This document shows, piece after piece, positions 27,448-51,900 of a stretch of 64,000 bases of DNA (positions are counted from its first letter, which is position 1; each line of letters begins with the position of its first letter). The notes under the pieces are model-generated. The model was given only the letters and a program-made list of their open reading frames with translations, was not told where the DNA came from and ran no database searches. The stretch lies in the NCBI GenBank assembly GCA_965262915.1, contig OZ253564.1, positions 4,128,001 through 4,192,000 of the forward strand, read 5' to 3'. A program made the position numbers and the translations under genes. This stretch comes from Candidatus Spongiisociaceae bacterium. GTDB lineage: Bacteria > Actinomycetota > Acidimicrobiia > Spongiisociales > Spongiisociaceae.

Positions 27448-27520
27448 GCCCGCGTAGCTCAGGGGATAGAGCAACCGCCTCCTAAGCGGTAGGTCGCAGG
27501 TTCGAATCCTGCCGCGGGCG
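27448..27520 (+). tRNA. tRNA-Arg (CCT)
   Basis: Cloverleaf GCCCGCG/CGCGGGC, anticodon arm ACCGC-CTCCTAA-GCGGT, GTTCGAATC T-loop. Confidence 0.97.
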
Positions 27521-27732
27521 CTCCGGGGTATTCGCGTGTTGGTGGGTGTTGGGTTCGCGGGTTAGGGGGCAAAGTCGGGTTTTTGGCTGGTTTTGGGGGT
27601 TTTGGGGGTCTGGTGGGGTGTGTGCGGTGCTGTGGGGTGCCGGTTATGGGTGTTGGTGGTGTTGGCGGCTGGTTTTGGACGCGTGTGGTTCGACGGGTGG
27701 TTCCCGTCGGTGTGGGATGGGTCGGGGTTGGT

Positions 27733-29463
27733 TTATGGGGGTGCCCGGGTGGGTGTGGGGCTGGTGGGGTGTGGGGGTGGTGTGGCTGATGGGGTGGTGT
27801 CGGGGGTTGTCTGGTCGGGATCGGTGGGGATGCTGTTGTGGTTGTCCCGGTTGCGGGTTCGTCGGGTTTGTTCGAGGTTGTGGATGACTGCGGCCATGAG
27901 CGCGGCGAGTGTGTGGGCGGCGAGACCGAACGCACGGCAGGATGCTTTGTCGAAGCTGCCGTCGTCTTTGATCATGGAGTTGACTCCTTCGACGGGGTTG
28001 CGTCCGGCGTAGTCGGTGGCCCAGTGGGTGGTTCCGTAGGCGTTGCGTTGGTGGTTGTCGAGTTGTTCGACGCTGAGGGTGATCATGCCGTTGCAGCAGT
28101 ACTCGGTGTCGGGGACGGCGACGGTGGGCTGGTCGGGGTTGTGGGTGCGGTTGGGCCGGTTGGGGTTGCGGGTCTTGGCTGTGGTCATAACGCGGCCGTC
28201 GCATTGGGGGCAGATGATTTTCTTGGTTCCGTTGGGGAAGGATTGGAGGACTCTCCATTGGTATTTGGACCGTTCGTCGTACCAGTCTTGGAGGGCGGCG
28301 CCGGTTAGATCGTCGGGTGGGCTCCATCGATGCGGTGGTGTCCAGATGGACAGGGGGGTGCCGCAGTGCACGAGGATGGGGGTGTCGCGTGTGCCTGCGG
28401 TGATCAGCCTGACCCGTTTTTCTTCGTCCGAGGATTGGTTCATGACGATTTCCCAGCCCTGTTCGCGCAGCGGCCGGACGAAGGTGTCTTTTTTGCGGGT
28501 GTAGCCCTGGTCGGCTTTGACGACTTTGAGTTTGGGTGCGACGCGTTTGGCTTGGATGGCCACCTCGTGTCCGATGGGTCCGGCTTCCTCGTCGGCTGGT
28601 GTGAGGGTCATAGCGACAATGTGTGGGGCGACGGAATGGTGGCGTCTGCCTTTTCGGATGGAGCGAACAAGTACAGCGAAATGACCGAAGAAGCCATTGA
28701 AGTGTCCTGCCGGACGTTTCGACGTTTCGCTGCGGAACCCTCGCCCGGCATCGACGTCGTCTGTGCGTTGTATCTTCCCGTTGGGCTTGAGCACAGTGCC
28801 CGGCGGTATCCGCCCGGCGTCGACCTCGGCTTGGGGGGTGTAGTCGGTTGTGCGGGCCCACGTTTCGTAGTCGGTGGCGTCGATGGCGATCTCGGTGGCA
28901 GCGCGAGCTGACCATTTCGCAACGGAGGGTGCGAGGAAGCGGTCGACCATCCATTGCAGGTCGATGTCGACACCGCCGGGGGTGACCGCCCCTTCCGTCA
29001 GGAATGCTTCGATGCGTCTGGCCTGACGCCAAACCAGGTTGTAGGACACAAACGAGTTGCCGGTGTCGGGATCCAGCAGGCCCCATTCGATGGCGATCAC
29101 AGCGTCGAGGCCTGCGAGGACTTCGCAAAACGCCGTCCGCGTGTATTTGCCCGTCATTTTGACGGTCAGGAGCATGACCGTGAGGATCATTTGGGTGGTA
29201 AGCACGGGTTGCGAACCCGGATGGGCACGCAACACCTGATCTATGTGTGTGCAAACCGCGGTGAGGCCCACGTACTGGAACATTCGGCGGGCTTGGGCGG
29301 GAGTCGTGATTATCGGTTCCCGGCGGCGGACTCCCTCCTCGTCGGTGTCCCCCCAGATGTTGACGCCCGCCGAGTCGGTGTCGTCGTACTGGTCCGCGCT
29401 GGAGTGGTCTTTGGGCAGTTTCCGCTCACAGTTCAGCTCGTACAAGCGGGCCGGGTCCGCCAT
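27733..29463 (-). CDS. Divergent DDE transposase (IS4-superfamily-like fold)
   Basis: IAIDATD, D.DAG.G, ADQGY, Y..R..VEGVNS.IK; Cys-rich insertion before the final E. Confidence 0.72.
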   Translation of the reverse strand: MADPARLYELNCERKLPKDHSSADQYDDTDSAGVNIWGDTDEEGVRRREPIITTPAQARRMFQYVGLTAVCTHIDQVLRAHPGSQPVLTTQMILTVMLLTVKMTGKYTRTAFCEVLAGLDAVIAIEWGLLDPDTGNSFVSYNLVWRQARRIEAFLTEGAVTPGGVDIDLQWMVDRFLAPSVAKWSARAATEIAIDATDYETWARTTDYTPQAEVDAGRIPPGTVLKPNGKIQRTDDVDAGRGFRSETSKRPAGHFNGFFGHFAVLVRSIRKGRRHHSVAPHIVAMTLTPADEEAGPIGHEVAIQAKRVAPKLKVVKADQGYTRKKDTFVRPLREQGWEIVMNQSSDEEKRVRLITAGTRDTPILVHCGTPLSIWTPPHRWSPPDDLTGAALQDWYDERSKYQWRVLQSFPNGTKKIICPQCDGRVMTTAKTRNPNRPNRTHNPDQPTVAVPDTEYCCNGMITLSVEQLDNHQRNAYGTTHWATDYAGRNPVEGVNSMIKDDGSFDKASCRAFGLAAHTLAALMAAVIHNLEQTRRTRNRDNHNSIPTDPDQTTPDTTPSATPPPHPTSPTPTRAPP

Positions 29464-29520
29464 CCCCCGCGCGGCGTAACGTTTCGCGGCGGCGGCGGGC
29501 AGCCCGGGGCTTGCTGACGA

Positions 29521-30468
29521 TCATGCGCCCAGCCCCCCGACTGCTGCGTCGACGGGGTCGAGGTCGGCAGCGGAAGCGGTGAGTAGTCCGGTGAGGGTGT
29601 CACACGAGACCGGACCTGCGATCTGACGTAGCGCAGCCAGGCTGGTGGCGGCGTGTAGATGGGCGACCAGCCAGGTGGAGCGGGCACGTCTCACCGACAG
29701 GCTGGCATTGCCACCGAACCCGACCTGGCGGCACAGCGCGTACACCGCGGTGCGATGCGACGCGGATACGAACCTTCCGTCGCCGACCAGACCCACCGCT
29801 TCGGTGACCAACCGGGTGTAATCGCGCCGGACCGGTACCACACGCGGATGCCGACCCCGAACCCGCACACCGACACGGCCACCACCCAAATCGATCACAT
29901 TGCCAGTCTCGGCTGCAGCGATCGCCGGGCTCAGCAGACCCGCTCCCAGGGTGGCTGCGACCACCCAGCGGCGACCCGCAGGCTCCGCCCGAGACGGCAG
30001 GCAGGCCGAGATCCGAAACGCGGTCTCGTCGCCCGGTGTGTACGGGGAAATAGGAACATGCTTGCGGGTCGGTTCCCCAACCGGTGGCCAACCATCCCCG
30101 AACGCAGCCCGCCCCACCCGGCGCAGCAACCACCGCTTATCACTACGCCACGTCCCCGCCCGGTCGGCGTTGACCTCGTTCGCCCAAAACTCCACGTTCT
30201 CAGGACACAACAGCCGAACATTTACGACACCTGACATCTCGTGCATCCACATCGTGAACTCAGAGGTGGCACGAAGCATCCGCCGCGCCATCGGCACATC
30301 ACCCGGTCGTGCTGCTGCCACCCAACAGCGCACCAACGGCAACGCCAGCGGCTCGAGATGGCCATCGTCGGGATACGTGTCCCAGATCGGCGGTCGCCAC
30401 ATCGACAGCCGTGCCAGCACATCGGCAGAAAGCCTTTCGGACAGCAGGGGCTTGGTGAAACAAGTCAC
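29521..30468 (-). CDS. Tyrosine-recombinase-like protein with degenerate catalytic residues
   Basis: LGAGL...V.V.G...RVVPV...RRARSTWLVAHL...L..L..IAG resembles an integrase catalytic domain; canonical Arg and Tyr not evident. Confidence 0.55.
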   Translation of the reverse strand: MTCFTKPLLSERLSADVLARLSMWRPPIWDTYPDDGHLEPLALPLVRCWVAAARPGDVPMARRMLRATSEFTMWMHEMSGVVNVRLLCPENVEFWANEVNADRAGTWRSDKRWLLRRVGRAAFGDGWPPVGEPTRKHVPISPYTPGDETAFRISACLPSRAEPAGRRWVVAATLGAGLLSPAIAAAETGNVIDLGGGRVGVRVRGRHPRVVPVRRDYTRLVTEAVGLVGDGRFVSASHRTAVYALCRQVGFGGNASLSVRRARSTWLVAHLHAATSLAALRQIAGPVSCDTLTGLLTASAADLDPVDAAVGGLGA

Positions 30469-30580
30469 GACCAGAGTCCCAACTTGTCCTGCAAACGGGC
30501 AGCGGACAGAACCCTCAGCTTGGCTAGATGCCCATCATGTGACAGTCGTCTGATACAATCCATACAAGCCTTTCGGCTCA

Positions 30581-30629
30581 ATCCGCGGTGTCCAACGGTT
30601 TGGTAGACCTGAGTGTGGACACCGCGGAT
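30581..30629. repeat. Perfect 14-bp inverted repeat
   Basis: ATCCGCGGTGTCCA-N21-TGGACACCGCGGAT. Confidence 0.9.
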
Positions 30630-30976
30630 GTTCGTTTTCTTCCCCTGCAGTCTCGCCGACTTTTCCCCTCAGGGCGAGCATTTACTATTAGACTATGCCC
30701 TAGGAGACTAGAAACCACCGCTGACCAGGGCATATATACCCACCCGCCCCGAGACAGCATGGCCGCTCCGAGCCGTCGAACCGGCCCGAAACCCGCAACG
30801 GACGCGCTCCGAGTCCCCGCCGTACGGTAGATCCGTTTCGGGATAGAGGGAGAGTTATCCATCGCAGGCACCGTGTTGTATTACTGCTAACATATGGCCT
30901 ATGGTACAGGTAGGGTGTGACACGAAGCCTTTGCCCGATTCGGCTCTTCGCAGCCTGATGGAAGGATCCGCCGCAC

Positions 30977-31306
30977 ATGGACGACGCACTCCAACAAGTC
31001 ATCCGCGACGTCTCCAAGACGCTCTGCGGAGCCCGCCTACGCCTACCTGTAGCGATCTGGATCCGAACCCAGCCCCAGGGCAGTGTTTTCTACCAGCGCC
31101 AGATCGCGAAAGGCATCGGAACCGACGCCCGCTACCTAGGCCGCGAAATGCACGTACTCCAACAACTCGGCATGATCAAACCCCAACCCCCGCCGCGTGC
31201 ACGCGACGTGCGACGTTTCTACCAGGCCGACCACACCCACCCTCTCTGGGCGCTCATCGACACCGCCCTCGCTGTCTGCACCCAACTCGCCCGAACCGGC
31301 CGTTAA
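30977..31306 (+). CDS. Small putative winged-HTH protein
   Basis: FYQRQIAKGIG...LGREMHVLQQLGMI...RRFY; GAAGGA upstream. Confidence 0.6.
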   Translation: MDDALQQVIRDVSKTLCGARLRLPVAIWIRTQPQGSVFYQRQIAKGIGTDARYLGREMHVLQQLGMIKPQPPPRARDVRRFYQADHTHPLWALIDTALAVCTQLARTGR

Positions 31307-31500: not shown

Positions 31501-34284
31501 GTGGCTCGCCTGTCATGGAATGAGATCCGAGTTCGAGCAGCCACCTTCGCCATGGAATGGCAGGACGCTGCCTACGAGAAGGGCGAAGCCCAGAGCTTCT
31601 ACAATGACTTCTTCAACGTGTTCGACGTAAAACGCCGTTCGGTGAGCCGCTACGAGGAGCACGTGAAGAAGCTCGACAACAGGTCCGGGTATATCGACTT
31701 GTTCTGGCCGGGTGTCTTGCTTGTTGAGCACAAAAGCGCCGGGAAGGATCTCGCGGCGGCGTACGACCAGGCTGGCGAGTACTTCGATGCGATCCCGGAG
31801 CGGGAGCGACCCCGCTATATCCTGGTGTCCGACTTCCAGAATTTCGAGCTTCGCGACTTGACCGAGCGGAGAACAGCCACGTTCGGTCTGGCCGATCTGC
31901 CCGACCATGTAGACAAGTTCGGGTTCGTGGTCGGCGTCAGTCGGCGGATGTTCCGCGATCAGGATCCGGTGAACATCGCAGCTGCCGAACTAGTGGGACG
32001 GTTGCACGATGCACTTCGAGAGACGCGCTATTCGGGTCACGATCTGGAGCGTTTCCTCGTACGGGTGACGTTCTGCCTGTTCGCCGACGACACAGGTGTG
32101 TTCGAACGGAATATCTTCCTCAATCTGATCACGGAACGCACTAGCGAGGACGGGGCAAACACGGGACAATGGTTGGGACAGCTCTTCGAGGTGCTGGACA
32201 CGCCCGAGGCAGATCGGTCTTCGGTTCTGGACGAGGATCTTGACAGGTTCCCCTACGTCAACGGGGGGTTGTTCGAGGGGCAGGTTCGGGTTACTTCGTT
32301 CAACGCGAACATGCGGAATCTGCTACTGGAAGCGTGCTGGTTTAACTGGTCGAACATCTCCCCCGCGACCTTCGGGGCGCTGTTCCAGTCGGTGATAGAC
32401 CCTGACAAACGGCGGGCGGATGGAGCGCATTACACCACCGAAGCGAACATTATGAAGGTGATCGGCCCGCTCTTCATGGATGGCCTCCAAGAAGAGTTCC
32501 AACGTCTCCGGTCGCGTCGTGACAGTCGTCGGGCAGTCGAACTCAAACGGTTCCAACAGAGACTGGGGACCCTGAGCTTTTTCGACCCTGCCTGCGGGTG
32601 CGGCAACTTTTTGGTTATCGCCTACCGGGAGCTGAGGCGCCTCGAAATAGAGGTCCTCCGCGAGATCAGGGCCGCTACCGGCCAGTCCGGGCAACAGGCG
32701 TTGGATGTGCAGTTGATGTCGCATGTCGATGTGGACCAGTTCTACGGTATCGAGCTGGGAGAGTTCCCGGCGCGGATCGCCGAGACCGCCCTGTGGATGA
32801 TGGACCACATCATGAACACCCAGCTGAGCCTGGAGTTCGGACAGACATACACACGTATACCGCTAGAAACCTCACCACGCATCATCTGTGGGGACGCACT
32901 GGAAACCGACTGGGCAGCAGTCTTGCCGCCCGACCAGTGCTCCTACGTATTCGGTAATCCACCGTTTTCTGGCTCCAAGATACAGAAATCCCACCGACGC
33001 GGGCAGGTGAAGCAGCTGTTCGGCGGTGGGCGGGGAACTCTGGACTACGTAACCGCCTGGTTCGCGAAGGCCGGAGAGTACCTGCAGGGAAACCGCAGCG
33101 TCCGGATCGGGTTCGTGGCCACAAACTCGATAACCCAAGGTGAACAACCAGGCCAGCTGTGGCCGGTCCTGTTCGACAGGTACAGCCTCGAGATATCGTT
33201 CGCCCACCGTACCTTCGCGTGGGGTTCCGACGCCCGCGGCAAAGCACACGTCCATGTCGTGATTATCGGCTTGGACCACAGCGACCATGCTCCCAAACAG
33301 AAGCGCCTGTTCGACTATCCGGACATCAACGGCCAACCCGACGAAAGCTCTACCACAGCCATATCACCCTATCTCGTCGACGCAGCCCACATGGACGACC
33401 CCCATGTCACAGTGCGGAAAGAATACAACCCCATCAACGGGATGAGCCGCCTGCGCGTCGGCTCCAAGCCCATCGACGGCGGGATCTACATCCTCAACGC
33501 TAACCAACGAGCTGCGTTCCTCGACTCCGAACCCGAAGCGGAACCGTTCCTACGCCCCTACATCGGTGGACGTGAATATCTACACAACGTCGAACGGTGG
33601 ATACTCGTACTTCACGACGCCGCTCCCGACCAATTAGCCCGCCTACCCCAAGTGAAGGAACGCATCAGTCGAGTCCGGTCCTACCGGCTAGCCAGAATAA
33701 GCGCGCCTACCCGTAAGCTAGCCGACACACCAACCCGATACCATGTGAACGTCCTACCTACTGCCCCGTATCTGGTTGTACCGGAATCCAGTTCCGAACG
33801 GAGAGAGTACATACCGATCGGATGGTTAGAACCGCCCACCATTCCCAGCAACCTCGTGAAGGTTCTGACGGACGCTTCGCTAGCCGATTTCGCCCTGCTG
33901 ACATCCACGATGCACATGGAATGGATGCGCCGTATCGGCGGCCGCATCAAAAGCGACTACCGCTACTCGGTCGGAGTGGTCTACAACACCTTCCCCACCC
34001 CACCCGGCTACCACACCAAAGACACCCAGGCGAAACTCGAACCCGTCGCACAAGCCGTCGTCGACGCCCGAGCCGTGTGGCCGCACTCCACACTCGCCAA
34101 CCTGTACGACCCCGACCTGATGCCCCCGAACCTGCGCCGGGCGCACCAGAGCCTAGACCGCACAGTAGACCGCCTATACAGCCGGACCCGTTTCACAACA
34201 CAATCCCAACGGATCCAGCATCTGCTCACGCTCTACCGCAACGCCCAATGCCGAGATGTGCCTACCGGGCGGAGTCCTTCGTGA
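31501..34284 (+). CDS. MmeI-like type IIL restriction-modification enzyme
   Basis: YIDLFWPG..LVEHKS nuclease, GAHYT, FDPACGCGNFL, GNPPF, RIKSDYRYS..VYNTFP, LYDPDLMP. Confidence 0.94.
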   Translation: MARLSWNEIRVRAATFAMEWQDAAYEKGEAQSFYNDFFNVFDVKRRSVSRYEEHVKKLDNRSGYIDLFWPGVLLVEHKSAGKDLAAAYDQAGEYFDAIPERERPRYILVSDFQNFELRDLTERRTATFGLADLPDHVDKFGFVVGVSRRMFRDQDPVNIAAAELVGRLHDALRETRYSGHDLERFLVRVTFCLFADDTGVFERNIFLNLITERTSEDGANTGQWLGQLFEVLDTPEADRSSVLDEDLDRFPYVNGGLFEGQVRVTSFNANMRNLLLEACWFNWSNISPATFGALFQSVIDPDKRRADGAHYTTEANIMKVIGPLFMDGLQEEFQRLRSRRDSRRAVELKRFQQRLGTLSFFDPACGCGNFLVIAYRELRRLEIEVLREIRAATGQSGQQALDVQLMSHVDVDQFYGIELGEFPARIAETALWMMDHIMNTQLSLEFGQTYTRIPLETSPRIICGDALETDWAAVLPPDQCSYVFGNPPFSGSKIQKSHRRGQVKQLFGGGRGTLDYVTAWFAKAGEYLQGNRSVRIGFVATNSITQGEQPGQLWPVLFDRYSLEISFAHRTFAWGSDARGKAHVHVVIIGLDHSDHAPKQKRLFDYPDINGQPDESSTTAISPYLVDAAHMDDPHVTVRKEYNPINGMSRLRVGSKPIDGGIYILNANQRAAFLDSEPEAEPFLRPYIGGREYLHNVERWILVLHDAAPDQLARLPQVKERISRVRSYRLARISAPTRKLADTPTRYHVNVLPTAPYLVVPESSSERREYIPIGWLEPPTIPSNLVKVLTDASLADFALLTSTMHMEWMRRIGGRIKSDYRYSVGVVYNTFPTPPGYHTKDTQAKLEPVAQAVVDARAVWPHSTLANLYDPDLMPPNLRRAHQSLDRTVDRLYSRTRFTTQSQRIQHLLTLYRNAQCRDVPTGRSPS

Positions 34285-35450
34285 TTAGACGAAAGCGCAG
34301 AACGTTGCGGTCGGCGGAACCGAGGTTTGCGGTTGTGGATGTGGAGACGACCGGGTTCTCCAGACATGACCGCATCGTCGAGTTCGCGTGTGTCACTGTG
34401 GTTGACGGTGCCGTGGTGGAGGAGTACGAAACACTGATACAGCCGCACCGTGACCCGGGGCCGGTCCATATTCATGGAATCACTCCAGATATGCTGCAAT
34501 CGGCGCCACCGTTCGAAGCCGTTGCCGGTGACATAGCTAACCGCCTCGACGGAGCAGTGCTCGTAGCTCACAACATCAGCTTCGACGTAAGGATGCTGGC
34601 CTACGAAGCTGACCGTCTCGAAAGCGGCGGCTTCCACCCTGGAGAAGGATTATGCACCTACAAACTGACCAGACAGAAGCTGGCACTAGCCGCCGCGGAA
34701 GCCGGTCTGCCCGAACCGAACCACACCGCGCTTACCGACGCCCGCACCGTCGCCGCGCTGGTTGACTTGCATGCCCCGCGCCGGGCTGTGCGAGATCTGA
34801 CCGCCGTGTCGTGGGTACCGAACATCTCCGCCAGCCGACTTACCGTACGCCGTCCAGACTCACCACCCCGTCGCGGGTCGCTGCACCAAGCTGCTGCACT
34901 CACCCGCTGGCCAGGCACCCCCGAGGAACCCACCGCGCTGTACCTCGACGTGCTAGACCGCTGCCTAGACGACGGAATCCTCGAAGACGATGAACGCGAA
35001 TGGTTGGATGGCACCGCCAGAGTGCTCGGTATCAGCGAACACGGCAGGACGCAGCTGCACAAGCAGTACTACGAACTCCTTAAAGAACAGATACTCGCCG
35101 ACGGGATCGTCACCCAAGAAGAGCAGCGCCTCGCGGAACAGATCGCCGCTGCGCTCGCTCTCGGACCCACCGGCCTTCCCGTCACGCAGCCTCCCGAGAA
35201 CCCGGTGGACATCCGCGCAGGCATGACAGTGTGCTTCACCGGAACAGCAGTGATCAAAGGTGGCCCCGCTAACAGACTGCTGTTAGAGAAGATCGCCACA
35301 CTAGTCGGGATGCGGACGGTGAAGTCCCTTACCAAGAAATGTGACCTGCTCGTCGCGGCCGATCCGCTATCACAATCCAGGAAAGCCCAAACCGCACGAA
35401 AGCGGGACATCCCGATCATCAGCGTCGAGGACTTTATCGACGCTACTTGA
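34281..35450 (+). CDS. DEDDh 3'-5' exonuclease with TerB-like middle region and C-terminal BRCT
   Basis: VVDVETTG, VAHNISFD, HTALTDA; DGILEDDE/ADGIVTQEE; VCFTG...LTKKCDLLV.AD..SQSRKA..AR; GTGA overlap with RM gene. Confidence 0.88.
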   Translation: MIRRKRRTLRSAEPRFAVVDVETTGFSRHDRIVEFACVTVVDGAVVEEYETLIQPHRDPGPVHIHGITPDMLQSAPPFEAVAGDIANRLDGAVLVAHNISFDVRMLAYEADRLESGGFHPGEGLCTYKLTRQKLALAAAEAGLPEPNHTALTDARTVAALVDLHAPRRAVRDLTAVSWVPNISASRLTVRRPDSPPRRGSLHQAAALTRWPGTPEEPTALYLDVLDRCLDDGILEDDEREWLDGTARVLGISEHGRTQLHKQYYELLKEQILADGIVTQEEQRLAEQIAAALALGPTGLPVTQPPENPVDIRAGMTVCFTGTAVIKGGPANRLLLEKIATLVGMRTVKSLTKKCDLLVAADPLSQSRKAQTARKRDIPIISVEDFIDAT

Positions 35451-38837: not shown

Positions 38838-40291
38838 CCCGGGTTCAAGGGGTCGTTGCAACACTGCCTTGTTGGAGGGAGTGTAGGAGGTTGTCGAGGG
38901 TCTCGGCGGGGGTCTTCCAGTTGAGGGTTTTGCGGGGTCGGCTGTTGAGTGCTGCGGCGACGGCGTCGAGGTCGCCTCTTGAGTGTCTGTGGAGGTCGGT
39001 GCCTTTGGGGAAGTATTGGCGTAGGAGACCGTTGGTGTTCTCGTTGGTTCCACGCTGCCATGGACTCTGCGGGTCGCAGAAGTAGATGTCGAGGTTGGCC
39101 TCTGTGCGGAGTTGAGCATGCTGGGCCATTTCGACTCCTTGGTCCCAGGTCAGCGAGCGGCGGAGCTGTTGGGGCAGGGTGATGATCGACGCAGCGATAG
39201 CGTCTCGTACGGCTTGGGCGCCGTGGCCGGCGAGAGGGGGCCCGTTGTGGACCCGTTGCTGTTTTCGGTGGCCTGGCATGGGTGGGAGGTGCAGCAGCAT
39301 CGTGAACCTGGTGGTCCGCTCCACCAGTGTTCCGATCGCGGAACTGTGGAGTCCCAGGATCAGGTCGCCTTCCCAGTGTCCTGGCACTGCCCGGTCGTCG
39401 GCCTCGGCGGGGCGTTGGGTGATCATGATCTCGGGAGCAACGAACGTCTTGCGTCGCCTCCGGGTTCGTGCCCGCGGGACCCGCAAAGCTCGCCCGGTTC
39501 GCCCACACGCCACGAGTTCGCGTTTTAGCGCGCCTCGGCCTTGCACATAGGCCGCCTGGTAGATGGCTTCGTGGGAGATTCGCATGGACTCATTGTGGGG
39601 GAAGTCGATCCGGAGCCGGTTCGAGATCTGCTCAGGGCTCCACGACGTTGCCCACCGCTGGGCAGCTCGCCTTCCGTGACGGCGACCCGCCCAGCGCACC
39701 TGGGGTCCTGGCACCAGCTCACCATCCGGGCGGGCGATCTGCCCACCCAAACGATCCTGCACATACTCACGAAGCTCGTCGTTGGCGGCCAGCTTGGAGA
39801 GCTTCGGGCGGCTGGCACGCCGCTCCGCGTGCCACTGCGCTGTCGTTGCCCGATAAACCACACCACGACTACGAGTCGACGCGTTACGGCGCAACTCCCG
39901 CGAAATCGTCGACGCGCAACGACCCACGCGACGACCGATCTCCCGCACCCCCACACCCTGCGCACAGAAGATGGCGATCTCTTCCCGTTCGGTAAACGAC
40001 AGATAACGCCCCGACACCGAACCCAGAGAGATCGGCGGCATCCCACCAGCCTGGCGGAACCATCTAGACCCAACCGCCGGGGACACCCCCGCCCCGGCAG
40101 CCGCGTCCTCACTCGAGACACCCCCAGCGATCCCCTCCCAGAACCGGACCCGATCCTCACGCCGCGCTTTCGACGGCCGACCAGGCGACCACATCCGGCC
40201 GCGCACCGCCCGAATCGCCTCCCGACGCTCCACAACACTCACCGCAAACCTCCTTCATCACCAAGTGTTGCGACCACCAATTGAATCCGCC
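38838..40291 (-). mobile_element. IS30-family insertion sequence
   Basis: 28-bp imperfect TIR ending GCAACACT; TTA direct repeat at 38835-38837 and 40292-40294. Confidence 0.88.
38845..40242 (-). CDS. IS30-family transposase
   Basis: STISRELRRN, WSPEQIS, GHWEGDLI, LTWDQG.E, PWQRGTNENTNGLLRQYFPKG. Confidence 0.96.
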   Translation of the reverse strand: MSVVERREAIRAVRGRMWSPGRPSKARREDRVRFWEGIAGGVSSEDAAAGAGVSPAVGSRWFRQAGGMPPISLGSVSGRYLSFTEREEIAIFCAQGVGVREIGRRVGRCASTISRELRRNASTRSRGVVYRATTAQWHAERRASRPKLSKLAANDELREYVQDRLGGQIARPDGELVPGPQVRWAGRRHGRRAAQRWATSWSPEQISNRLRIDFPHNESMRISHEAIYQAAYVQGRGALKRELVACGRTGRALRVPRARTRRRRKTFVAPEIMITQRPAEADDRAVPGHWEGDLILGLHSSAIGTLVERTTRFTMLLHLPPMPGHRKQQRVHNGPPLAGHGAQAVRDAIAASIITLPQQLRRSLTWDQGVEMAQHAQLRTEANLDIYFCDPQSPWQRGTNENTNGLLRQYFPKGTDLHRHSRGDLDAVAAALNSRPRKTLNWKTPAETLDNLLHSLQQGSVATTP

Positions 40292-40462: not shown

Positions 40463-40575
40463 GAGGTGACGCCCGTCGTTCCCTATCTCTGAGGTGACGT
40501 CGTCCGGGTTCTGGAGGCGACGTCCTCTACTGCCCCTGAGCGAACTCCCTGGTGGGGGGTGGTCGCGAAGACCCC
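40463..40575 (+). repeat. Dispersed island motif, copy A
   Basis: GAGGYGAC at 40463, 40491, 40514; CCTGGTGGGGGGTGGTCGCGAAGACCCC at 40548-40575. Confidence 0.75.
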
Positions 40576-40719
40576 ACGGCACGGCACGACGACCGACGGC
40601 GACGCCCGGCTTTCGCCCCCGGCCCATTGAGCACTACGGCTCGGCCTGGCTGTGGACGTTCTGCAGAGGTTCGTCTACAGACCCTACCCATAACGACATC
40701 AAAGTAGTTGAATGTCGTC

Positions 40720-41928
40720 ATGGGTAGGTATGAGAAACGCCTATGGTCTCCTCACGACGCCGAACGTTATCCACCAACGAGCGGCCGCCGCAACCGCAGA
40801 TCCGGCACATACGATGCTTACATTCCAGACCTGCTCAGCGGCTGGGAACCGTCGCTACCGCTGCGCTTGGCGGGTGCGATAGCAGAAGCCGAAACGCTGG
40901 TACGCCTGACCGACGCTGTGGGGTCCGCAGACGATCCGAGCGCGGCTGAGTGGCTACTGGTGAGAGCTGAGAGCGTGGCTTCCAGCCGCATTGAAGGAGT
41001 GTTCCCGTCGCTGCGCCGCGTGGCAAGGGCCGAAGCCCGTCAAAGCGGTCTAGCACCATCCGACAAGATGGCAATCGGGAATATCACCGTCACGGCACAA
41101 GCCCTAGTGCTGGGGAAGCAGGCGCGGCCGGTGACCGTAGATGACCTATGCGGACTTCACCGATCCCTGATGAACCACTCACTCCACCCGCAGGCAGGTG
41201 GAGTAATCCGGGAACGACAGAACTGGATAGGCCCGGAGTTCTCCACTCCCCTAGAAGCCGTACACGTGCCACCGCCGCCCGAGATGGTCCGTCCGCGGCT
41301 CGAGGATCTCGTGTCCTACATGAACAACCAGCACCACCCACCCCTCGTTCAAGCTGCCCTAGCCCATTCACAGTTCATTGCGATCCACCCGTTCGCGGAC
41401 GGTAACGGCCGCACCGGACGAGCACTCATCCATCTCGTCATGCGCAGGCGGAAACTCACCCGCAACCTGACCGTACCCATAAGCTCGGTGCTGGCACGGC
41501 AACGCTCCGCCTACATCGGCACCCTCGACGCCGGACTGCACGAAGGCTCCCCTCACGACCCCGCCCGAATGACCGCACAACAACCATGGCTACAACTCCT
41601 CGCCGACGCGACCCTGGCCGCCTGCGACTACTCGGACCGCATCCAGAACAGGCTCGCCGACATTCGCGCACAATGGCAACAGGCCGTCCCACTACGCGGC
41701 GAATACCAGCGGCGCATGGTCGAACTACTACCCACCCAGCCCGTGTTCGACATCCCGACCATCTCCCAACAACTCGGAGTCAGCCAACGCACAGCCGCCC
41801 GCGTAGTGGCACACCTCCAAGAAGGCGGAATACTCCGCCAACACAACGCCGGCAAGCGAAACCGTGTCTTCGAAGCCGCAGCAATCGTCGACCTGTTCAC
41901 TTCCCTACCAGACAACATCCAAACCTGA
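40720..41928 (+). CDS. Fic-family protein with C-terminal HTH
   Basis: ESVASSRIEG, HPFADGNGRTGR. Confidence 0.93.
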   Translation: MGRYEKRLWSPHDAERYPPTSGRRNRRSGTYDAYIPDLLSGWEPSLPLRLAGAIAEAETLVRLTDAVGSADDPSAAEWLLVRAESVASSRIEGVFPSLRRVARAEARQSGLAPSDKMAIGNITVTAQALVLGKQARPVTVDDLCGLHRSLMNHSLHPQAGGVIRERQNWIGPEFSTPLEAVHVPPPPEMVRPRLEDLVSYMNNQHHPPLVQAALAHSQFIAIHPFADGNGRTGRALIHLVMRRRKLTRNLTVPISSVLARQRSAYIGTLDAGLHEGSPHDPARMTAQQPWLQLLADATLAACDYSDRIQNRLADIRAQWQQAVPLRGEYQRRMVELLPTQPVFDIPTISQQLGVSQRTAARVVAHLQEGGILRQHNAGKRNRVFEAAAIVDLFTSLPDNIQT

Positions 41929-43240: not shown

Positions 43241-43711
43241 GGGTGAGATGTTAACCCGACCGTGCTACGGCGGCTCTTGTACCAATCTACGTGGCGAAGT
43301 GGTTGTCGAGATGCTTGACCCTGATTGCCACGGTACCATCGTAGCAGTATTCGCTGTCGACTACGGCTTCGATAGGTAGGCTGACCGCGTTGTTGCGGGC
43401 GGTCGCTGTGGTGAGGACCCGTCCGGCGTATTGGGGGCATATGAACCTCAGGACACCGTCGGGTTCACGTCCTGCTACGGACCAGCGCCATTGGGCCGCC
43501 CGCTACGTGTATCAGTCTCACAACTCGTTGCTTGCCAGTTTATGTGGTGGTGTGTGGAAATCGGTGGTGTCCGGACGGCGGAGAGGAACGTTCCGCAGTG
43601 TTCTATCTATCAGGGTTGTGGTGGACGGCGACCATTACAGCGTGGATGGCGGTGGTCACCTAGTTCAAGGGGACGACCCTAACCCCCCGGATACCGCCAG
43701 AATGGACTCCA

Positions 43712-45148: not shown

Positions 45149-45344
45149 GCCCCTGACCCTGTACGACTTGGCCGCATACGAAGAGTCAGACGACTTCCGC
45201 AACAAAGCCGCTCTTCCGTAAGCCGCGTACGCGCAGGCTGCCTCGTCGTATTGGCGTGCTGCGCCCGTTGGTCGTCGCGGAACCGCTACTGTCGTTCCTG
45301 GTCAGGGGCGGTCTCGAAGACCCCATGGGGGGTAGGCGCGGGGG

Positions 45345-45912: not shown

Positions 45913-45996
45913 GAGGTGCCAGATTCCGGCTGAGGAGGTGACAGACTCGTGGGACCCCTACCATTACCCCTGGTCAGGGGTGGTCGCGAAGACCCC
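45913..45996 (+). repeat. Dispersed island motif, copy D
   Basis: GAGGTGCC..GAGGTGAC..GACCCCTACC..CCTGGTCAGGGGTGGTCGCGAAGACCCC. Confidence 0.75.
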
Positions 45997-47616: not shown

Positions 47617-48855
47617 ATGGGAGAAGCAGACCAGATTATCTACGGTGGGGTTGACACCCATCGGGACGTCCACGTAGCAGCGGTGGTGGATGGCGTCGGG
47701 CGGGTACTGGGATCGGAGTCTTTCGCGGTGGAGGAATCCGGTTATCGGCGAATGGTCACCTGGTTCGAGTCGCGGGGACAGTTGGTTCGGGTTGGGGTGG
47801 AAGGAACGGGTAGTTACGGCGCCGGCCTGGCCCGTTACCTGACCGAGATGAACATCGAGGTGGTGGAGGTCAACCGCCCCAACCGCCAACTACGCCGCCA
47901 GAAGGGCGGCAAGACCGACAGCGTCGACGCCGAGGCGGCAGCTCGGGCAGCTGCCTCGGGCGAAGCAACCGCGGTTCCCAAGTCCGGTGTGGGCCCGGTC
48001 GAGTGCATACGGATGCTGTGGGTGGTGCGCCGCTCCGCGGTCAAGGCCCGCACCCAGGCCGCTAACCAGATACATGCGCTGGTCGTAACAGCTCCCGAGC
48101 CGCTAAAACACCAGCTAAAGGGCATGAATCTCAAAGCACGGGTCAAAACCTGTGCCCGGTTCCGACCCGGCACAGACCACACCACCACCGCGTATGCGAA
48201 GCGTGCCCTACAGCATTTGGCCCGCCGGTATCAGGCCCTCGACGTAGAGATCGCCCAACTCGAAGCCGAGATCCGGCGTCTCTGCGCCCAGGCCAACCCG
48301 GCCCTGCTGGCCACAGAAGGTGTCGGTCCTGACACAGCCGCCGCGTTGTTGGTCGCCGCCGGCGACAACCCCAAGCGAATGAAATCGGAACGGTCTTTCG
48401 CGGCGCTGTGCGGCGCCAGCCCCGTCCAGGCGTCATCAGGACGAACCCTTCGGCATCGTCTCAACCGGGGCGGCAACCGCCAAGCCAACAACGCGCTATG
48501 GCGGATCGCTACCACCCGGATGCGCACCGACGCCGCCACCAAAGCCTACGTGGCACGACGCAAGGCCGAGGGCAAGAAGAAAAAGGAGATCATCCGCTGC
48601 CTCAAGCGGCACATCGCCCGAGAAATCTACCGGCTCCTCACCAACCCGCACCCAACCCCGAACTGCGCCCGCCTACGCACCCGACGCCAACAACGCGGCA
48701 TCACCCTCACCCAGACCGCCCAAGCCGTCGGAACCCACCCCAATCGCATCTCAGCACTCGAACACGGCCGAGACCACAACCACCACCTCGCCACCCGATA
48801 CCAGAACTGGCTGCACACCCACCAAACCGGCTCATCGGATTTCAGTGGGGAGTGA
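47617..48855 (+). CDS. IS110-family recombinase with extra C-terminal XRE-like HTH
   Basis: GGVDTH, VGVEGTGSYG, KTDSVDA, GVGP, SSG, LNRGGNRQAN, RCLKRHIAREIY; last codons come from the inserted ISL3 (native end APSSI* at 50270-50287). Confidence 0.95.
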   Translation: MGEADQIIYGGVDTHRDVHVAAVVDGVGRVLGSESFAVEESGYRRMVTWFESRGQLVRVGVEGTGSYGAGLARYLTEMNIEVVEVNRPNRQLRRQKGGKTDSVDAEAAARAAASGEATAVPKSGVGPVECIRMLWVVRRSAVKARTQAANQIHALVVTAPEPLKHQLKGMNLKARVKTCARFRPGTDHTTTAYAKRALQHLARRYQALDVEIAQLEAEIRRLCAQANPALLATEGVGPDTAAALLVAAGDNPKRMKSERSFAALCGASPVQASSGRTLRHRLNRGGNRQANNALWRIATTRMRTDAATKAYVARRKAEGKKKKEIIRCLKRHIAREIYRLLTNPHPTPNCARLRTRRQQRGITLTQTAQAVGTHPNRISALEHGRDHNHHLATRYQNWLHTHQTGSSDFSGE

Positions 48856-50261
48856 CCGATGGGAGTAGGTCCCAGTTGGGTTTCCCCGCGTAGAGAAGGG
48901 CGCGGATTCGGTAGTTCGCGAAGTTGCGGAACCCGAACGCTGCTCGTTTGATCCGTTTGATGAGGTTGTTGAGGGCTTCGGTGGGTCCGTTGGTTACCTT
49001 CGAGATGTGCCAGTTGGTGATCTGGGGGGTCCAGCGGGCGATGGTACGACCCAGCTTGTTGATCTCGGGTGGGCAGGATTCGTGTTGGAGGTCGTCTGCG
49101 AGCTGGAGGGTGTATCGGAGAGCAAGGACCGGACTCTCGATCCCGTAGATGCCTCGTACCGTCTCTTTCGCGTGCCAGGCTGTGCGCACTTCCCCGTAGG
49201 GGTCACCAGCATCGAGGAGACCACGCAGCCGTATTTGACCCCGGTCGCTGATCCTCTCATGCGCAGCGGTTAGGAGCCGCCGTATCCGATACAGCGGGTC
49301 ATCCTTGCGGCCTCGATGCCCGAGGGTTTCGTTTTGGACTCTTCGTCGTACCTCGTCGAGACGCTGGTTGGCGAGGCGGATGACGTGGAACGGGTCCGCT
49401 ACCTGCAGCGCGTGCGGCAGCACCCTGTCATACGCCTTCCGATACGAACCGGACATGTCCAACACCGCCCAGCGGATAGCCTCACACCATTCGGTGGGTT
49501 GTGACCGGAACCAGGCTGCGGCGCTTTCTGCTGTTCTACCAGGGACTATGTCGATCAGCTGGTGGCCGCCAACGTCGACGACAGAGGTGCACCAGACTTT
49601 GGTACGCCAACGGCCCCGACGCCAGAACAACGTCTCGTCCACTCCCACAGCTTCGACGGTCCCGACCCGATCGGTGTCTGCTTCCAGCAGCGCTTCGCCC
49701 CAGCGGCCAACCTCTTTGTTCACCGTATGCCAATCACAACCAAGTTCTGCGGCGACCTCGTCGACCGAACGGCCCCGCCCACCCACCTGGATGGTCACCC
49801 ACCGGGCCGCTCGGGATGTCAACAACGCCCGTTGGGGACCAATCTTGGGGTCTTGTTCGATGAACGATCTGAGCGCACAGTCGGGGTTCGGACATGTCCA
49901 GCGCCGTTTCCGCCACCGCAGCCGCACAGGCCGGCCGAACGCCGGTAAATCCACCAACACAACCGTCCGATAGCCCTTCGACCACACCGACCCGCCACAG
50001 GACTCACACAACGGCCGGGGCTTGCGGGACCGGATCACCACCTCCAACGGTGCCTCCTCGCCCGGGTCGTTGATCCCTACCAGATCAACCTCACCTAGGC
50101 CTACCAACTTCTCGCACATGCGCGTAGGATCAGCTTCCACAGGGGTCCTCCTGCCTCGGATGTCATTACCAACACCCGATTATGGAGGACCCCTCCTCAC
50201 TTCTGGTGGATTCCAACTCCCCCTGGCAGATCCCCTACTCCCCACTCATTTCCGAAGAGCC
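48829..50261 (-). mobile_element. Intact ISL3-family insertion sequence
   Basis: TIR GGCTCATCGGATTTCAGTGGGGAGT / GGCTCTTCGGAAATGAGTGGGGAGT; 8-bp TSD ACCAAACC at 48821-48828 and 50262-50269. Confidence 0.93.
48842..50140 (-). CDS. ISL3-family transposase
   Basis: Zn finger, GVDET, LDMS..Y, ADPFHV, TNGPTEALNNLIKRIKRAAFGFRNF.NYRIR. Confidence 0.96.
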   Translation of the reverse strand: MEADPTRMCEKLVGLGEVDLVGINDPGEEAPLEVVIRSRKPRPLCESCGGSVWSKGYRTVVLVDLPAFGRPVRLRWRKRRWTCPNPDCALRSFIEQDPKIGPQRALLTSRAARWVTIQVGGRGRSVDEVAAELGCDWHTVNKEVGRWGEALLEADTDRVGTVEAVGVDETLFWRRGRWRTKVWCTSVVDVGGHQLIDIVPGRTAESAAAWFRSQPTEWCEAIRWAVLDMSGSYRKAYDRVLPHALQVADPFHVIRLANQRLDEVRRRVQNETLGHRGRKDDPLYRIRRLLTAAHERISDRGQIRLRGLLDAGDPYGEVRTAWHAKETVRGIYGIESPVLALRYTLQLADDLQHESCPPEINKLGRTIARWTPQITNWHISKVTNGPTEALNNLIKRIKRAAFGFRNFANYRIRALLYAGKPNWDLLPSVTPH

Positions 50262-51814: not shown

Positions 51815-51900
51815 GAGGTGACGTCCTGCCTAGTTCGGAGGTGACGTCGTCCCTAGACTCATATCGAAGTGCCTGCTCGGGGGTGGTCGCGAGGATCCTC
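51815..51900 (+). repeat. Dispersed island motif, copy E
   Basis: GAGGTGACGTCCTGCCTAGTTCGGAGGTGACGTCGTCCC...GGGGGTGGTCGCGAGGATCC. Confidence 0.8.

What the first reader, a model, noticed from the sequence alone, without database searches (positions are those of the whole stretch)
27521..30811. Candidate new two-gene mobile element: DDE transposase plus degenerate tyrosine-recombinase-like protein
Seen: co-oriented 315-aa integrase-like and 576-aa DDE-like genes directly after the tRNA-Arg 3' end. The G/T-to-C/A skew flips once across both genes, as in each single IS here, which suggests one unit. No TIR is evident. An 8-bp direct repeat GCGCTCCG (27518-27525, overlapping the tRNA end, and 30804-30811) may mark the ends, but it could be chance in GC-rich DNA. 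The integrase-like ORF lacks obvious catalytic Arg/Tyr (GAGLL, no C-terminal Y). Inference: it may be a DNA-binding targeting or accessory factor. I do not recognise this pairing as a named IS family.
Basis: partly seen in the sequence, partly recalled or inferred. Interest (0 to 1): 0.72.

Follow-up and report, generated by a model that had tools for sequence, protein, structure and literature searches.

The report
tRNA-homing transposon with dead recombinase partner
The two genes are the engine of a 26-kb jumping element that lands precisely at the end of tRNA genes, apparently using a Tn5-like cutting enzyme together with a tyrosine-recombinase look-alike that has lost its catalytic residues, a pairing not yet named in the databases and papers searched.

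Summary
The proposed ends are wrong. The 8-mer GCGCTCCG occurs 12 times in the window against 6.75 expected.

The real element spans 27525-53769 (26,245 bp). It has 12-bp terminal inverted repeats matching at 11 of 12 positions, and a 5-bp target duplication, GCTCC, at 27520-27524 and 53770-53774. The duplication starts at the tRNA discriminator base. Related genomes have an empty site.

The 576-aa protein has a Tn5-transposase fold with invariant D195/D318/E492 and a YREK motif. The 315-aa protein has a Xer/Cre fold, but the Arg-I, His/Trp-III and Tyr positions are not conserved.

In Acidimicrobiia genomes, 26 of 30 homologues of the 315-aa gene are followed by the transposase gene. Of those 26 pairs, 15 abut a tRNA or tmRNA gene. 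Two 98.9%-identical copies sit at tRNA-Ala and at tmRNA with different duplications (ACTTG, ACTTT), so the repeat comes from the target.

Best reading: a targeted DDE transposon whose pseudo-recombinase selects tRNA-gene ends, analogous to TnsF of Tn6022. The targeting role is inferred, not shown. Seven literature searches found no description of this family.

The parts
27448..27521 (+). tRNA-Arg(CCT), the insertion target. G27520 is the discriminator base.
   Evidence: ARAGORN. The same tRNA lies in synteny in relatives.
27520..27524 (.). Left copy of the 5-bp target-site duplication, GCTCC (discriminator base plus 4 nt).
   Evidence: Exact coordinates. The same 5-mer follows End-2 at 53770-53774.
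27525..27732 (+). End-1, the tRNA-proximal end. It holds the terminal inverted repeat GGGGTATTCGCG (27525-27536) and a direct repeat TTCGCGKGTT at 27531-27540 and 27554-27563, followed by a G/T-rich stretch up to the transposase stop codon.
   Evidence: 13 copies in the genome all start in register at this base. Sequence read.
27733..29463 (-). T576, a Tn5-fold DDE transposase. It has D195, D318, E492, the motif Y485-x2-R488-x3-E492-x6-K499, a Cys-rich insertion (CPQC...CC) and a conserved C-terminal ...RAPP. In relatives the ORF starts 20 codons earlier, at an ATGA overlap with the stop of the 315-aa gene. Here one extra base near 29482 shifts that extension out of frame.
   Evidence: table 4 shows contigs lacking one base at 29482.
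29521..30468 (-). Y315, a two-domain protein with a tyrosine-recombinase fold whose Arg-I (L179), His/Trp-III (P286) and nucleophile Tyr are not conserved. R209, R214, R261, R263, H270 and Y143 are conserved.
30977..31306 (+). H109, a small divergently transcribed ORF with a weak winged-helix hit. It is conserved next to copy C and in L013, but is not universal in the family.
31501..34284 (+). Cargo: an MmeI-like type IIL restriction-modification enzyme.
   Evidence: Five MmeI Pfam domains, E-values 1e-24 to 1.7e-82.
33822..35450 (+). Cargo: ORF with an RNase_T exonuclease domain and a BRCT domain. The true start is probably after 34284.
38845..40242 (-). Independent IS inside the element. The protein carries HTH_38 and rve domains, which look IS30-like.
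40551..40575 (+). Internal solo End-2 copy followed by the fossil 5-mer ACGGC. That 5-mer is the one found at tRNA-Glu elsewhere in this genome.
40708..41928 (+). Cargo: a Fic-domain protein.
43275..43556 (-). Decayed fragment of a T576-like gene: 42% identity to residues 380-479, with 4 in-frame stops.
45300..45324 (+). Internal solo End-2 copy, followed by ATGGG.
45972..45996 (+). Internal solo End-2 copy, followed by the fossil 5-mer ACGAC.
47617..48855 (+). Independent IS110-family transposase gene.
48842..50140 (-). Independent ISL3-family transposase gene.
51875..51899 (+). Degenerate internal End-2 copy.
53745..53769 (+). End-2, the distal end: GGTGGGGGGTGGTCGCGAAGACCCC. Its last 12 nt are the inverted repeat of End-1.
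53770..53774 (.). Right copy of the target-site duplication, GCTCC.
53775..54102 (+). Remnant of one or more older insertions. It begins GGGGTGTTAGCC and ends with a second-type End-2, GGTCAGCGATGGTGGCGAACATGCC (54078-54102). Synteny with relatives resumes at about 54143.

Best explanation
The two genes are the transposition module of a family of targeted DDE transposons that behave like tRNA-linked genomic islands.

Shown by computation:
- The element in the window is 27525-53769.
- It has 12-bp terminal inverted repeats and asymmetric ends. End-1 carries two copies of TTCGCGKGTT and always faces the tRNA.
- It is flanked by a 5-bp target duplication that begins at the discriminator base of a tRNA or tmRNA gene, so the RNA gene stays intact.

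Inferred:
- T576, a Tn5-fold DDE enzyme with a YREK motif, binds the ends, excises the element and joins it to a target cut with a 5-bp stagger.
- Y315 descends from a tyrosine recombinase. It keeps the DNA-clamping fold and its basic residues but has lost Arg-I, His/Trp-III and the Tyr nucleophile. It recognises the T-arm/acceptor DNA of tRNA genes and positions and orients the transposase. It would then play the role that TnsD and TnsF play for Tn7-like elements, but without TnsC or TniQ.
- Repeated insertion at the same point builds head-to-tail arrays. When inner End-1 copies are lost, the outermost ends can move the whole array. That would explain how the 26-kb cargo (MmeI-like R-M, Fic, toxin-antitoxin-like genes, three other IS) and the internal solo End-2 copies with foreign 5-mers accumulated.
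For: Proteins:
- T576: the top PDB fold hits are Tn5 transposase (1muh, E 3.9e-5, 530 columns). D195, D318, E492 and R488 are invariant in 28 sequences. The motif DYAGRNPVEGVNSMIK fits Y-2-R-3-E-6-K. Pfam and NCBIfam give only weak DDE_Tnp_1_6, DDE_Tnp_1 and IS1182 hits.
- Y315: the top fold hits are XerA, Cre, XerH, IntI and Tn1549 Int (E down to 1.4e-6). hhalign against this genome's own 18 tyrosine recombinases gives 88.9% probability.
- Catalytic columns in 94 family members: R at the Arg-I column in 20 of 94; H at the His-III column in 0 of 94 (P in 61); Tyr in 2 of 94 or 7 of 94 at the two candidate columns; Arg-II R263 in 92 of 94.

Linkage and target:
- 26 of 30 Y315-like genes have a T576-like gene downstream, and 15 of those 26 pairs abut a convergent tRNA or tmRNA gene.
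- In relatives the stop of one gene and the start of the next overlap as ATGA.

Ends:
- 13 End-1 copies start in register.
- In arrays, End-2 abuts End-1 with exactly 5 nt between perfect 12-bp inverted repeats.
- The same 5-mer flanks both ends in the window (GCTCC), in the element at 476 kb (ACCAA), in the 692-kb array (ACTTA), in the tRNA-Met array (ACAGC), and in L023 and L027 (ACTGA), L029 (ACTTG) and L030 (ACTTT).
- L029 and L030 are 98.9% identical over 2702 bp, yet sit at tRNA-Ala and tmRNA with different 5-mers.

Other:
- Empty site: in G004, G013 and G022 the tRNA-Arg is followed within 40-270 bp by the homologue of window 54143 onward.
- None of the 38 PF00589 matches in the genome lies in the element or in the tRNA-Met array.
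- Precedent for an inactivated tyrosine recombinase acting as a transposon target selector: TnsF of Tn6022 (PMC10293859, passages read).
- Complex prediction for T576 with Y315: weak support. Score 0.34, best of 3 controls 0.08. That mark was reached by 58 of 80 solved complexes and 2 of 110 mismatched pairs, but at 0.60 or under by only 7 of those 80 and by both mismatches. Runs agree in at least 94% of contacts and the partner's pLDDT is at least 80.
Against: - No experiment and no DNA-binding data exist. Nothing directly assigns target recognition to Y315 rather than to T576.
- The complex prediction is only a weak pass.
- Y143 is conserved in 92 of 94 sequences, and Arg-II and R261 are nearly invariant. 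A non-canonical catalytic role for Y315 is therefore not excluded.
- Some junctions do not fit a simple history. Inner junctions of the tRNA-Met array read ACGCA (twice) and ACAGA rather than ACAGC. The last End-2 of the tRNA-Glu array is followed by ACAGC, not ACGGC. The 5-mer in the empty site of G004 is GCCTC, not GCTCC. The oldest remnant ends with TGCC-GCGTG-CGCCTC, which also resembles 12 nt of the tRNA 3' end.
- In 10 of the 15 tRNA-adjacent loci searched, no convincing End-2 was found within the 10-13 kb held.
- The window's T576 has a 1-nt frame difference in its N-terminal extension, so this copy may be impaired, or the assembly may carry a homopolymer error.
- Public contigs gave no evidence of excision.
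Confidence: 0.6

Rival explanations
1. The anatomy is the same (DDE transposon, TIRs, 5-bp duplication at tRNA ends), but T576 itself reads the tRNA gene. Y315 would instead be an end-binding, transpososome-assembly, regulatory or immunity cofactor.
For: T576 has a large N-terminal helical region and a Cys-rich insertion that could bind DNA. End-1 carries repeated sites that some protein must bind. The complex prediction is only a weak pass.
Against: Tyrosine-recombinase folds clamp specific DNA. The only documented reuse of an inactivated one in a transposon is as a target selector (PMC10293859). The pair is conserved wherever tRNA targeting is seen. Orientation-specific insertion at a fixed distance from a conserved DNA feature is typical of a dedicated target-bound factor; this last point is inference from Tn7, recalled.
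Confidence: 0.22
2. Y315 is still an active, non-canonical site-specific recombinase, for example using Y143. It would integrate and excise the element at a 5-bp core in the tRNA 3' end. The DDE protein would serve another purpose.
For: The abutted ends in arrays (12-bp inverted repeats around 5 nt) look like a recombinase core site. Y143, R261, R263 and H270 are nearly invariant. Integration at tRNA 3' ends is classic integrase behaviour.
Against: R occupies the Arg-I column in only 20 of 94 sequences, and no Tyr sits at the canonical place. Near-identical elements carry different 5-mers at different targets, each duplicated on both sides. T576 keeps an intact DDE/YREK site across 28 diverse sequences, so it is under selection as an enzyme.
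Confidence: 0.08
3. The island was integrated by a conventional tyrosine or serine integrase, and the two genes are passengers. A variant is the first reader's 3.3-kb two-gene IS bounded by GCGCTCCG.
For: A 12-nt stretch resembling the tRNA-Arg 3' end (TGCCGCGTGCGC, 1 mismatch) lies at the outer right junction, about 54098-54109. The 8-mer repeat exists.
Against: No PF00589 match lies in the island, and no recombinase appeared among the ORFs scanned. The module, not any integrase, is what is consistently next to tRNA genes. The 8-mer is at chance frequency. Homology between copies and the TSD/TIR pairs define other ends.
Confidence: 0.04

Closest known systems
Tn6022-type Tn7-like transposons with TnsF (Faure et al. 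2023, PMC10293859; passages read)
   Same: A DDE transposon that homes to one conserved chromosomal site using a protein with an inactivated tyrosine-recombinase domain. It carries defence and other cargo and makes a target-site duplication.
   Different: Tn6022 uses TnsA/TnsB (a Mu/retroviral-type DDE), the AAA+ protein TnsC and TniQ, and it targets comM. Here there is a single Tn5-fold transposase. No TnsA, TnsB, TnsC or TniQ appeared among the ORFs scanned. The target is the 3' end of tRNA and tmRNA genes. Y315 keeps both recombinase domains and lacks TnsF's zinc-finger N-terminus. Y315 was not compared directly with TnsF.
Tn5/IS50 and the IS4-IS1182 group of DDE transposases
   Same: Fold, DDE triad and YREK motif, terminal inverted repeats and a short target duplication.
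   Different: All Pfam and NCBIfam scores fall below the curated cut-offs: 24 against 25.1, 18.9 against 23, and 24 against 270 bits. A second obligatory gene is present. The target is strict and the orientation fixed. The duplication is 5 bp, whereas Tn5 makes 9 bp (recalled). The elements carry tens of kb of cargo.
Integrase-driven tRNA/tmRNA genomic islands and prophages
   Same: The position directly 3' of tRNA and tmRNA genes, tandem arrays at one tRNA, defence-gene cargo, and a recombinase-fold gene next to the tRNA.
   Different: There is no active-site Tyr or Arg-I. The elements have inverted-repeat ends, not a direct-repeat att core made of tRNA sequence. Only 5 bp is duplicated, and it is target-derived.
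Casposons, and eukaryotic Dada DNA transposons that target small-RNA genes (PMC4779613, PMC6614799, PMC3706591; seen in search listings only)
   Same: Transposons with TIRs and target duplications that home to tRNA genes or their 3' ends.
   Different: The enzymes differ (a Cas1 casposase; a eukaryotic Dada transposase), and no recombinase-like partner is involved.

Membership tests
IS4/Tn5 superfamily DDE transposase | RNase-H-like catalytic fold resembling Tn5 transposase | tested here: met
   Foldseek: ranks 1-5 are Tn5 transposase chains, E 3.9e-5 to 2e-3, about 500-530 aligned columns. The model has pLDDT 84 and pTM 0.83.
IS4/Tn5 superfamily DDE transposase | Conserved DDE triad and Y-(2)-R-(3)-E-(6)-K signature | tested here: met
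   D195, D318, E492 and R488 are invariant and Y485 is at least 90% conserved in 28 sequences. The motif DYAGRNPVEGVNSMIK was read. The name and spacing of the signature are recalled.
IS4/Tn5 superfamily DDE transposase | Score above the curated threshold of a family HMM (PF01609, PF13751, NF033551 for IS1182) | tested here: not met
   24.0 against 25.1 bits, 18.9 against 23 bits, and 24 against 270 bits.
IS4/Tn5 superfamily DDE transposase | Terminal inverted repeats and a fixed-length target-site duplication | tested here: met
   12-14-bp TIRs. A 5-bp duplication was seen in the window and in seven other elements or arrays.
IS4/Tn5 superfamily DDE transposase | Cut-and-paste transposition through a DNA hairpin | not testable with these tools
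   This needs biochemistry.
Tyrosine site-specific recombinase (Phage_integrase, PF00589) | Two-domain core-binding plus catalytic fold | tested here: met
   Foldseek hits to XerA, Cre, XerH and IntI over 270-350 columns. hhalign gives 88.9% probability against this genome's own recombinases.
Tyrosine site-specific recombinase (Phage_integrase, PF00589) | Catalytic R-K-H-R-H/W-Y residues conserved | tested here: not met
   R at the Arg-I column in 20 of 94 sequences. H at the His/Trp-III column in 0 of 94 (P in 61). Tyr in 2 of 94 or 7 of 94 at the candidate columns. Only Arg-II (92 of 94) is kept.
Tyrosine site-specific recombinase (Phage_integrase, PF00589) | Pfam or NCBIfam model match | tested here: not met
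   No family at E <= 1 in Pfam or NCBIfam.
Tn7-like transposon | Presence of TnsB-type transposase, TnsC ATPase and TniQ/TnsD | tested here: not met
   None was found among the island ORFs scanned with Pfam, about 20 ORFs of 109 aa or more. Small ORFs were not scanned.
Integrase-type tRNA genomic island | A catalytically competent integrase, and att direct repeats made of the tRNA 3' segment | tested here: not met
   No PF00589 match in the element. The repeat is 5 bp and varies with the target for near-identical elements.

The most novel reading that the evidence does not exclude
A widespread actinobacterial class of compact, two-protein, site-specific DNA insertion systems. A Tn5-like transposase would be steered by a domesticated, catalytically dead tyrosine recombinase to the last bases of tRNA and tmRNA genes. 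The duplication would begin at the discriminator base, so the RNA gene is never damaged. This would be a DDE route to the 'integrase-type' tRNA island, evolved independently of Tn7/TnsF. It would also grow by fusing tandem arrays into larger transposons.
Probability: 0.5. Interest if true: 0.85.

Novelty: new variant of a known kind. Interest (0 to 1): 0.78.

Why it matters
Islands next to tRNA genes are routinely credited to tyrosine integrases. This family suggests that a DDE transposase with a recombinase-derived partner can give the same genomic signature. If so, island-finding tools keyed on integrases would miss or misread such elements.

It would be a second, independent case of an inactivated tyrosine recombinase recruited by a transposon. 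It would also be the first linked to a Tn5-type enzyme working without an ATPase adaptor. A two-protein system that inserts tens of kb at a defined, harmless and universally conserved site would interest people who study targeted transposition.

The family is not small. A profile of the 315-aa protein finds 2420 representative clusters at E <= 0.001 and 203 at E <= 1e-30. In an annotated Streptomyces plasmid both genes of the pair are labelled 'hypothetical protein'.

Tried and rejected
The 8-mer is at chance frequency and other ends were defined.
- A 12-nt tRNA-like direct repeat as an integrase att core (27510-27521 and about 54098-54109). This was my first reading. I dropped it when one search showed the proper End-2 with a matching 5-mer at 53745-53774. 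The 12-nt resemblance at the outer junction remains unexplained.
- A 9-bp (Tn5-like) or 8-bp duplication model: it does not fit the symmetric TIRs (reasoned).
- Empty-site test for the 476-kb element: the right flank is another 13-copy IS, so the test was uninformative.
- Empty-site test for the tRNA-Met array: the distal flank has no match in the 7 same-genus genomes, so the test was uninformative.
- Public sequencing runs: all four runs laid are contigs, not raw reads. Contigs break at the tRNA and at 27525, as expected for a repeat. No joint or loose end showed excision or an empty allele.
- H109 against the small regulator in the same position on Streptomyces clavuligerus pSCL3: no similarity. 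H109 is not a universal third component; by tblastn it was found in only 1 of 27 loci.
- The first homology searches with the word index gave only 46 and 24 relatives and made the family look tiny. The exhaustive profile search corrected that.
- Seven literature searches found no description of a Tn5-like transposase paired with a recombinase-like protein at tRNA genes. Subscription journals, ISfinder and supplementary files could not be searched, so prior description cannot be excluded.
- An early note gave the duplication as 27522-27526. One search corrected it to 27520-27524.

Full report
**What is at the locus**

ARAGORN places tRNA-Arg(CCT) at 27448-27521 on the + strand. On the minus strand lie a 576-aa ORF (27733-29463, here T576) and a 315-aa ORF (29521-30468, here Y315). 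It occurs 12 times in the window against 6.75 +/- 2.5 expected, so it is not a meaningful repeat.

**The proteins**

T576:
- It gives only sub-threshold hits to DDE_Tnp_1_6, DDE_Tnp_1 and the IS1182 model.
- An alignment of 28 relatives, down to 29% identity, has invariant D195, D318, E492 and R488. It also has a nearly invariant Y485, two invariant Cys pairs and a conserved C-terminal R-A/G-P-P.
- The stretch DYAGRNPVEGVNSMIK fits the Y-2-R-3-E-6-K signature of IS4-type transposases. The name of that signature is recalled.
- The AlphaFold model (pLDDT 84, pTM 0.83) matches Tn5 transposase over about 530 columns at ranks 1-5 (E from 3.9e-5).

Y315:
- It has no Pfam or NCBIfam hit.
- Its model (pLDDT 84.8) matches XerA, Cre, XerH, IntI and the Tn1549 integrase over both domains (33 hits at E <= 0.001).
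- A profile comparison with this genome's own 18 tyrosine recombinases gives 88.9% probability. It places L179 at Arg-I, R263 at Arg-II and P286 at His/Trp-III.
- I examined 94 family members: the 27 rows of A1 plus 67 of the 144 listed representatives, keeping those of 280-380 aa. Arg-I is R in 20. His-III is never H (P in 61). Tyr appears in 2 or 7 at the two candidate columns. R263 (92), R261 (91), R209 (89), R214 (87), H270 (84) and Y143 (92) are conserved.
- So the fold of a DNA-clamping recombinase is kept, but the canonical active site is not.

**The two genes are a unit**

- The genome holds three full copies of the pair in the same order, at 63-69% protein identity, plus fragments.
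- A scan of one genome per species returned 27 loci, all from Acidimicrobiia MAGs.
- After removing the L012/L016 overlap and a split match in L015, these hold 30 Y315-like genes. Of these, 26 have a T576-like gene on the same strand within 1.7 kb.
- The four without are L013 (the contig ends 164 bp later), L028, the first gene of L033, and L036.
- In relatives the stop of Y315 and the start of T576 overlap as ATGA. In the window, one extra base in a homopolymer near 29482 puts the first 20 codons of T576 out of frame. Some public contigs lack that base (table 4). This may be an assembly error or a real lesion.

**Target**

- Of the 26 pairs, 15 are followed 20-410 bp later by a convergent tRNA or tmRNA gene: Met, Val (two anticodons), Leu, Lys, Cys, Ala, Ser and tmRNA.
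- The other 11 are array-internal (L012 second pair, L016 second pair, L027 first pair), cut by a contig or locus end (L019, L033 second pair), have a truncated T576 with a tmRNA 1.3-1.5 kb further on (L022, L038), have a tRNA or tmRNA 2-7.7 kb further on (L034, L037), or have none in view (L024, L025).
- In this genome, elements or arrays sit at tRNA-Arg(CCT), tRNA-Met and tRNA-Glu(TTC), out of 51 tRNA/tmRNA genes. One also sits at an uncalled tRNA-like 3' half at 476 kb.

**Ends**

- BLAST of the DNA after the tRNA finds 12 further copies in the genome, all starting in register at window 27524/27525.
- In arrays, each such End-1 (GGGGTCTTCGCGTGTT...) is preceded by the other end (...GGTCGCGAAGACCCC) with exactly 5 nt between. 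That gives 12-bp perfect inverted repeats.
- A second end type has a 14-bp perfect repeat, GGGATGTTCGCCAC.
- End-1 carries a second copy of the inner motif 23 bp inside (27531-27540 and 27554-27563). End-2 does not. End-1 always faces the tRNA.

**Target-site duplication**

- In the window, GCTCC (27520-27524) precedes End-1, and the same 5-mer follows the End-2 at 53745-53769. Of the five full End-2 copies downstream, only that one has the matching 5-mer.
- The same 5-mer flanks both ends in the 476-kb element (ACCAA), the 692-kb array (ACTTA), the tRNA-Met array (ACAGC), and in L023 and L027 (ACTGA), L029 (ACTTG) and L030 (ACTTT).
- In one search I searched 15 tRNA-adjacent loci for an End-2. 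Five gave a convincing one (L012, L023, L027, L029, L030). Ten gave none within the 10-13 kb held.
- L029 and L030 are 98.9% identical over 2702 bp of the module and 97-98% identical at both ends. They lie at tRNA-Ala and tmRNA in different genomes, with different 5-mers. The repeat is therefore copied from the target, not carried by the element. That is the signature of transposition, not of att recombination.
- tRNA-Ala and tmRNA share the T-arm/acceptor sequence, which fits sequence-level recognition of that DNA.
- In every case with a called tRNA, the 5-mer begins at the discriminator base. I read this.

**Extent in the window**

- In same-genus G004, and in G013 and G022, the tRNA-Arg is followed within 40-270 bp by the homologue of window 54143 onward. 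Everything from 27525 to about 54102 is therefore inserted DNA.
- GC content is 57-63% inside against 64-71% outside.
- The element proper is 27525-53769. The stretch 53775-54102 is an older remnant ending in a second-type End-2.
- G002, G005 and G006 carry End-1 remnants and other insertions at the same tRNA but no module.
- No PF00589 match (38 in the genome) lies in the element or in the tRNA-Met array.
- Cargo: an MmeI-like R-M enzyme, an RNase_T-BRCT protein, Fic, two DUF433 proteins, a nucleotidyltransferase-fold protein, and IS30-like, IS110 and ISL3 elements.

**Accretion**

- Inside the element are four solo End-2 copies in the same orientation (40551, 45300, 45972, 51875), a decayed T576 fragment (43275-43556) and a faint Y315-like match at 38049-38147.
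- Two of the solo ends are followed by 5-mers starting AC (ACGGC, ACGAC). tRNA-Arg has discriminator G, so these were made at other tRNAs. ACGGC is the 5-mer at this genome's tRNA-Glu array, and ACGAC is the 5-mer at tRNA-Leu in L015.
- I infer that arrays which lose inner End-1 copies are later moved as one unit by the outermost ends.

**Breadth**

- A profile of Y315 finds 2420 representative clusters at E <= 0.001, 1652 at E <= 1e-10 and 203 at E <= 1e-30, among 1.84 billion.
- In a sample of 400 other genomes of the phylum, 7 have a match. Three of these are unpublished genomes.
- In G090 and G133, two tandem Y315-like genes precede a T576-like gene with a tmRNA gene 1.6-4 kb beyond it. 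G187 has three Y315-like domains before the T576-like gene.
- Streptomyces clavuligerus pSCL3 has a small regulator, a 322-aa Y315 homologue (hhalign 99.2%) and a 579-aa T576 homologue. The two homologues are annotated 'hypothetical protein', and no tRNA was found in the 13 kb examined.

**Mechanism**

- Shown by computation: the anatomy, the conserved DDE site, the degenerate recombinase site, the strict target and orientation, and the target-derived 5-bp duplication.
- Inferred: T576 performs the cutting and joining. Y315 binds the tRNA-gene T-arm/acceptor DNA and recruits and orients T576.
- The complex prediction gives weak support. The score is 0.34 and the best of 3 controls is 0.08. That mark was reached by 58 of 80 solved complexes and 2 of 110 mismatched pairs, but at 0.60 or under by only 7 of those 80 and by both mismatches. 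Runs agree in at least 94% of contacts and the partner's pLDDT is at least 80.
- The nearest precedent is TnsF of Tn6022, an inactivated tyrosine-recombinase-domain protein required for insertion into comM (PMC10293859, passages read). That system also needs TnsA, TnsB, TnsC and TniQ, none of which was seen here.

**What does not fit**

- Inner junction 5-mers of the tRNA-Met array are ACGCA (twice) and ACAGA.
- The last 5-mer of the tRNA-Glu array is ACAGC, not ACGGC.
- The 5-mer of the G004 empty site is GCCTC, not GCTCC.
- The outermost junction, TGCC-GCGTG-CGCCTC, resembles 12 nt of the tRNA 3' end. GCGTG is also the 5-mer next to an End-1 remnant at the tRNA-Arg of G013.
- These points suggest a history of several insertions, losses and mutations that I could not reconstruct.

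**Novelty**

Seven full-text searches found no description of this pairing or of a Tn5-type transposon homing to tRNA-gene ends in bacteria. I rate it a new variant of a known kind: a targeted DDE transposon with a dedicated selector. It has a different transposase class, a different target and a simpler composition than the Tn7-like precedent.

Noticed in passing
window 29464-29526: Relative to a 99%-identical relative (P0047), the window has one extra base in an AAA/TTT run near 29482. This puts the first 20 codons of the transposase (MIVSKPRAARRRRE...) out of frame. Some public contigs lack that base. It may be a homopolymer assembly error or a real lesion.
   Followed up: partly
window 31501-34284: A complete MmeI-like type IIL restriction-modification gene (all five MmeI Pfam domains) is carried as cargo. 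It is followed by an ORF with RNase_T exonuclease and BRCT domains.
   Followed up: partly
window 54098-54109: The stretch TGCCGCGTGCGC at the outermost right junction matches the last 12 nt of the tRNA-Arg with one mismatch. No model I tried explains it: it may be coincidence of an End-2 tip plus a GCGTG 5-mer, or a relic of an older integrase-type event.
   Followed up: partly
window 46481-47383 (G000:C1:4174481-4175383): This is one of 13 copies (91-100% identical) of another repeated element, about 0.9 kb, in this genome. It was found when the flank of the 476-kb element was used as a query. It also lies inside the island.
   Followed up: no
window 40576-40585: The solo End-2 at 40551-40575 is followed by ACGGCACGGC, a tandem copy of the 5-mer. 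This could be the footprint of an excised neighbouring element.
   Followed up: no
G000:C1:1661506-1689800: A tandem array of about 28 kb sits at tRNA-Met. It holds two full modules (copies C and B), at least five End-2/End-1 junctions and both end types. Similar arrays lie at tRNA-Glu (1596050-1604015) and at 686-692 kb.
   Followed up: partly
G000:C1:476270-479049: A 2.7-kb element has both ends and the duplication ACCAA. It lies next to a T-arm/acceptor/CCA sequence that ARAGORN does not call as a tRNA. The target can therefore be a tRNA 3' fragment. No T576 or Y315 match was reported there, so it is probably non-autonomous.
   Followed up: partly
L066 (G133:C3:442500-453500) and L067 (G187:C145:27000-38000): Distant relatives in other classes of the phylum carry two or three tandem or fused recombinase-like units before the transposase gene. 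This hints that the selector may act as a multimer.
   Followed up: partly
window 57318-58265: A second 315-aa ORF in the window has no Pfam hit. It lies in the conserved syntenic flank, and the own-genome search with the 315-aa query gave no match there. The equal length is coincidental.
   Followed up: partly
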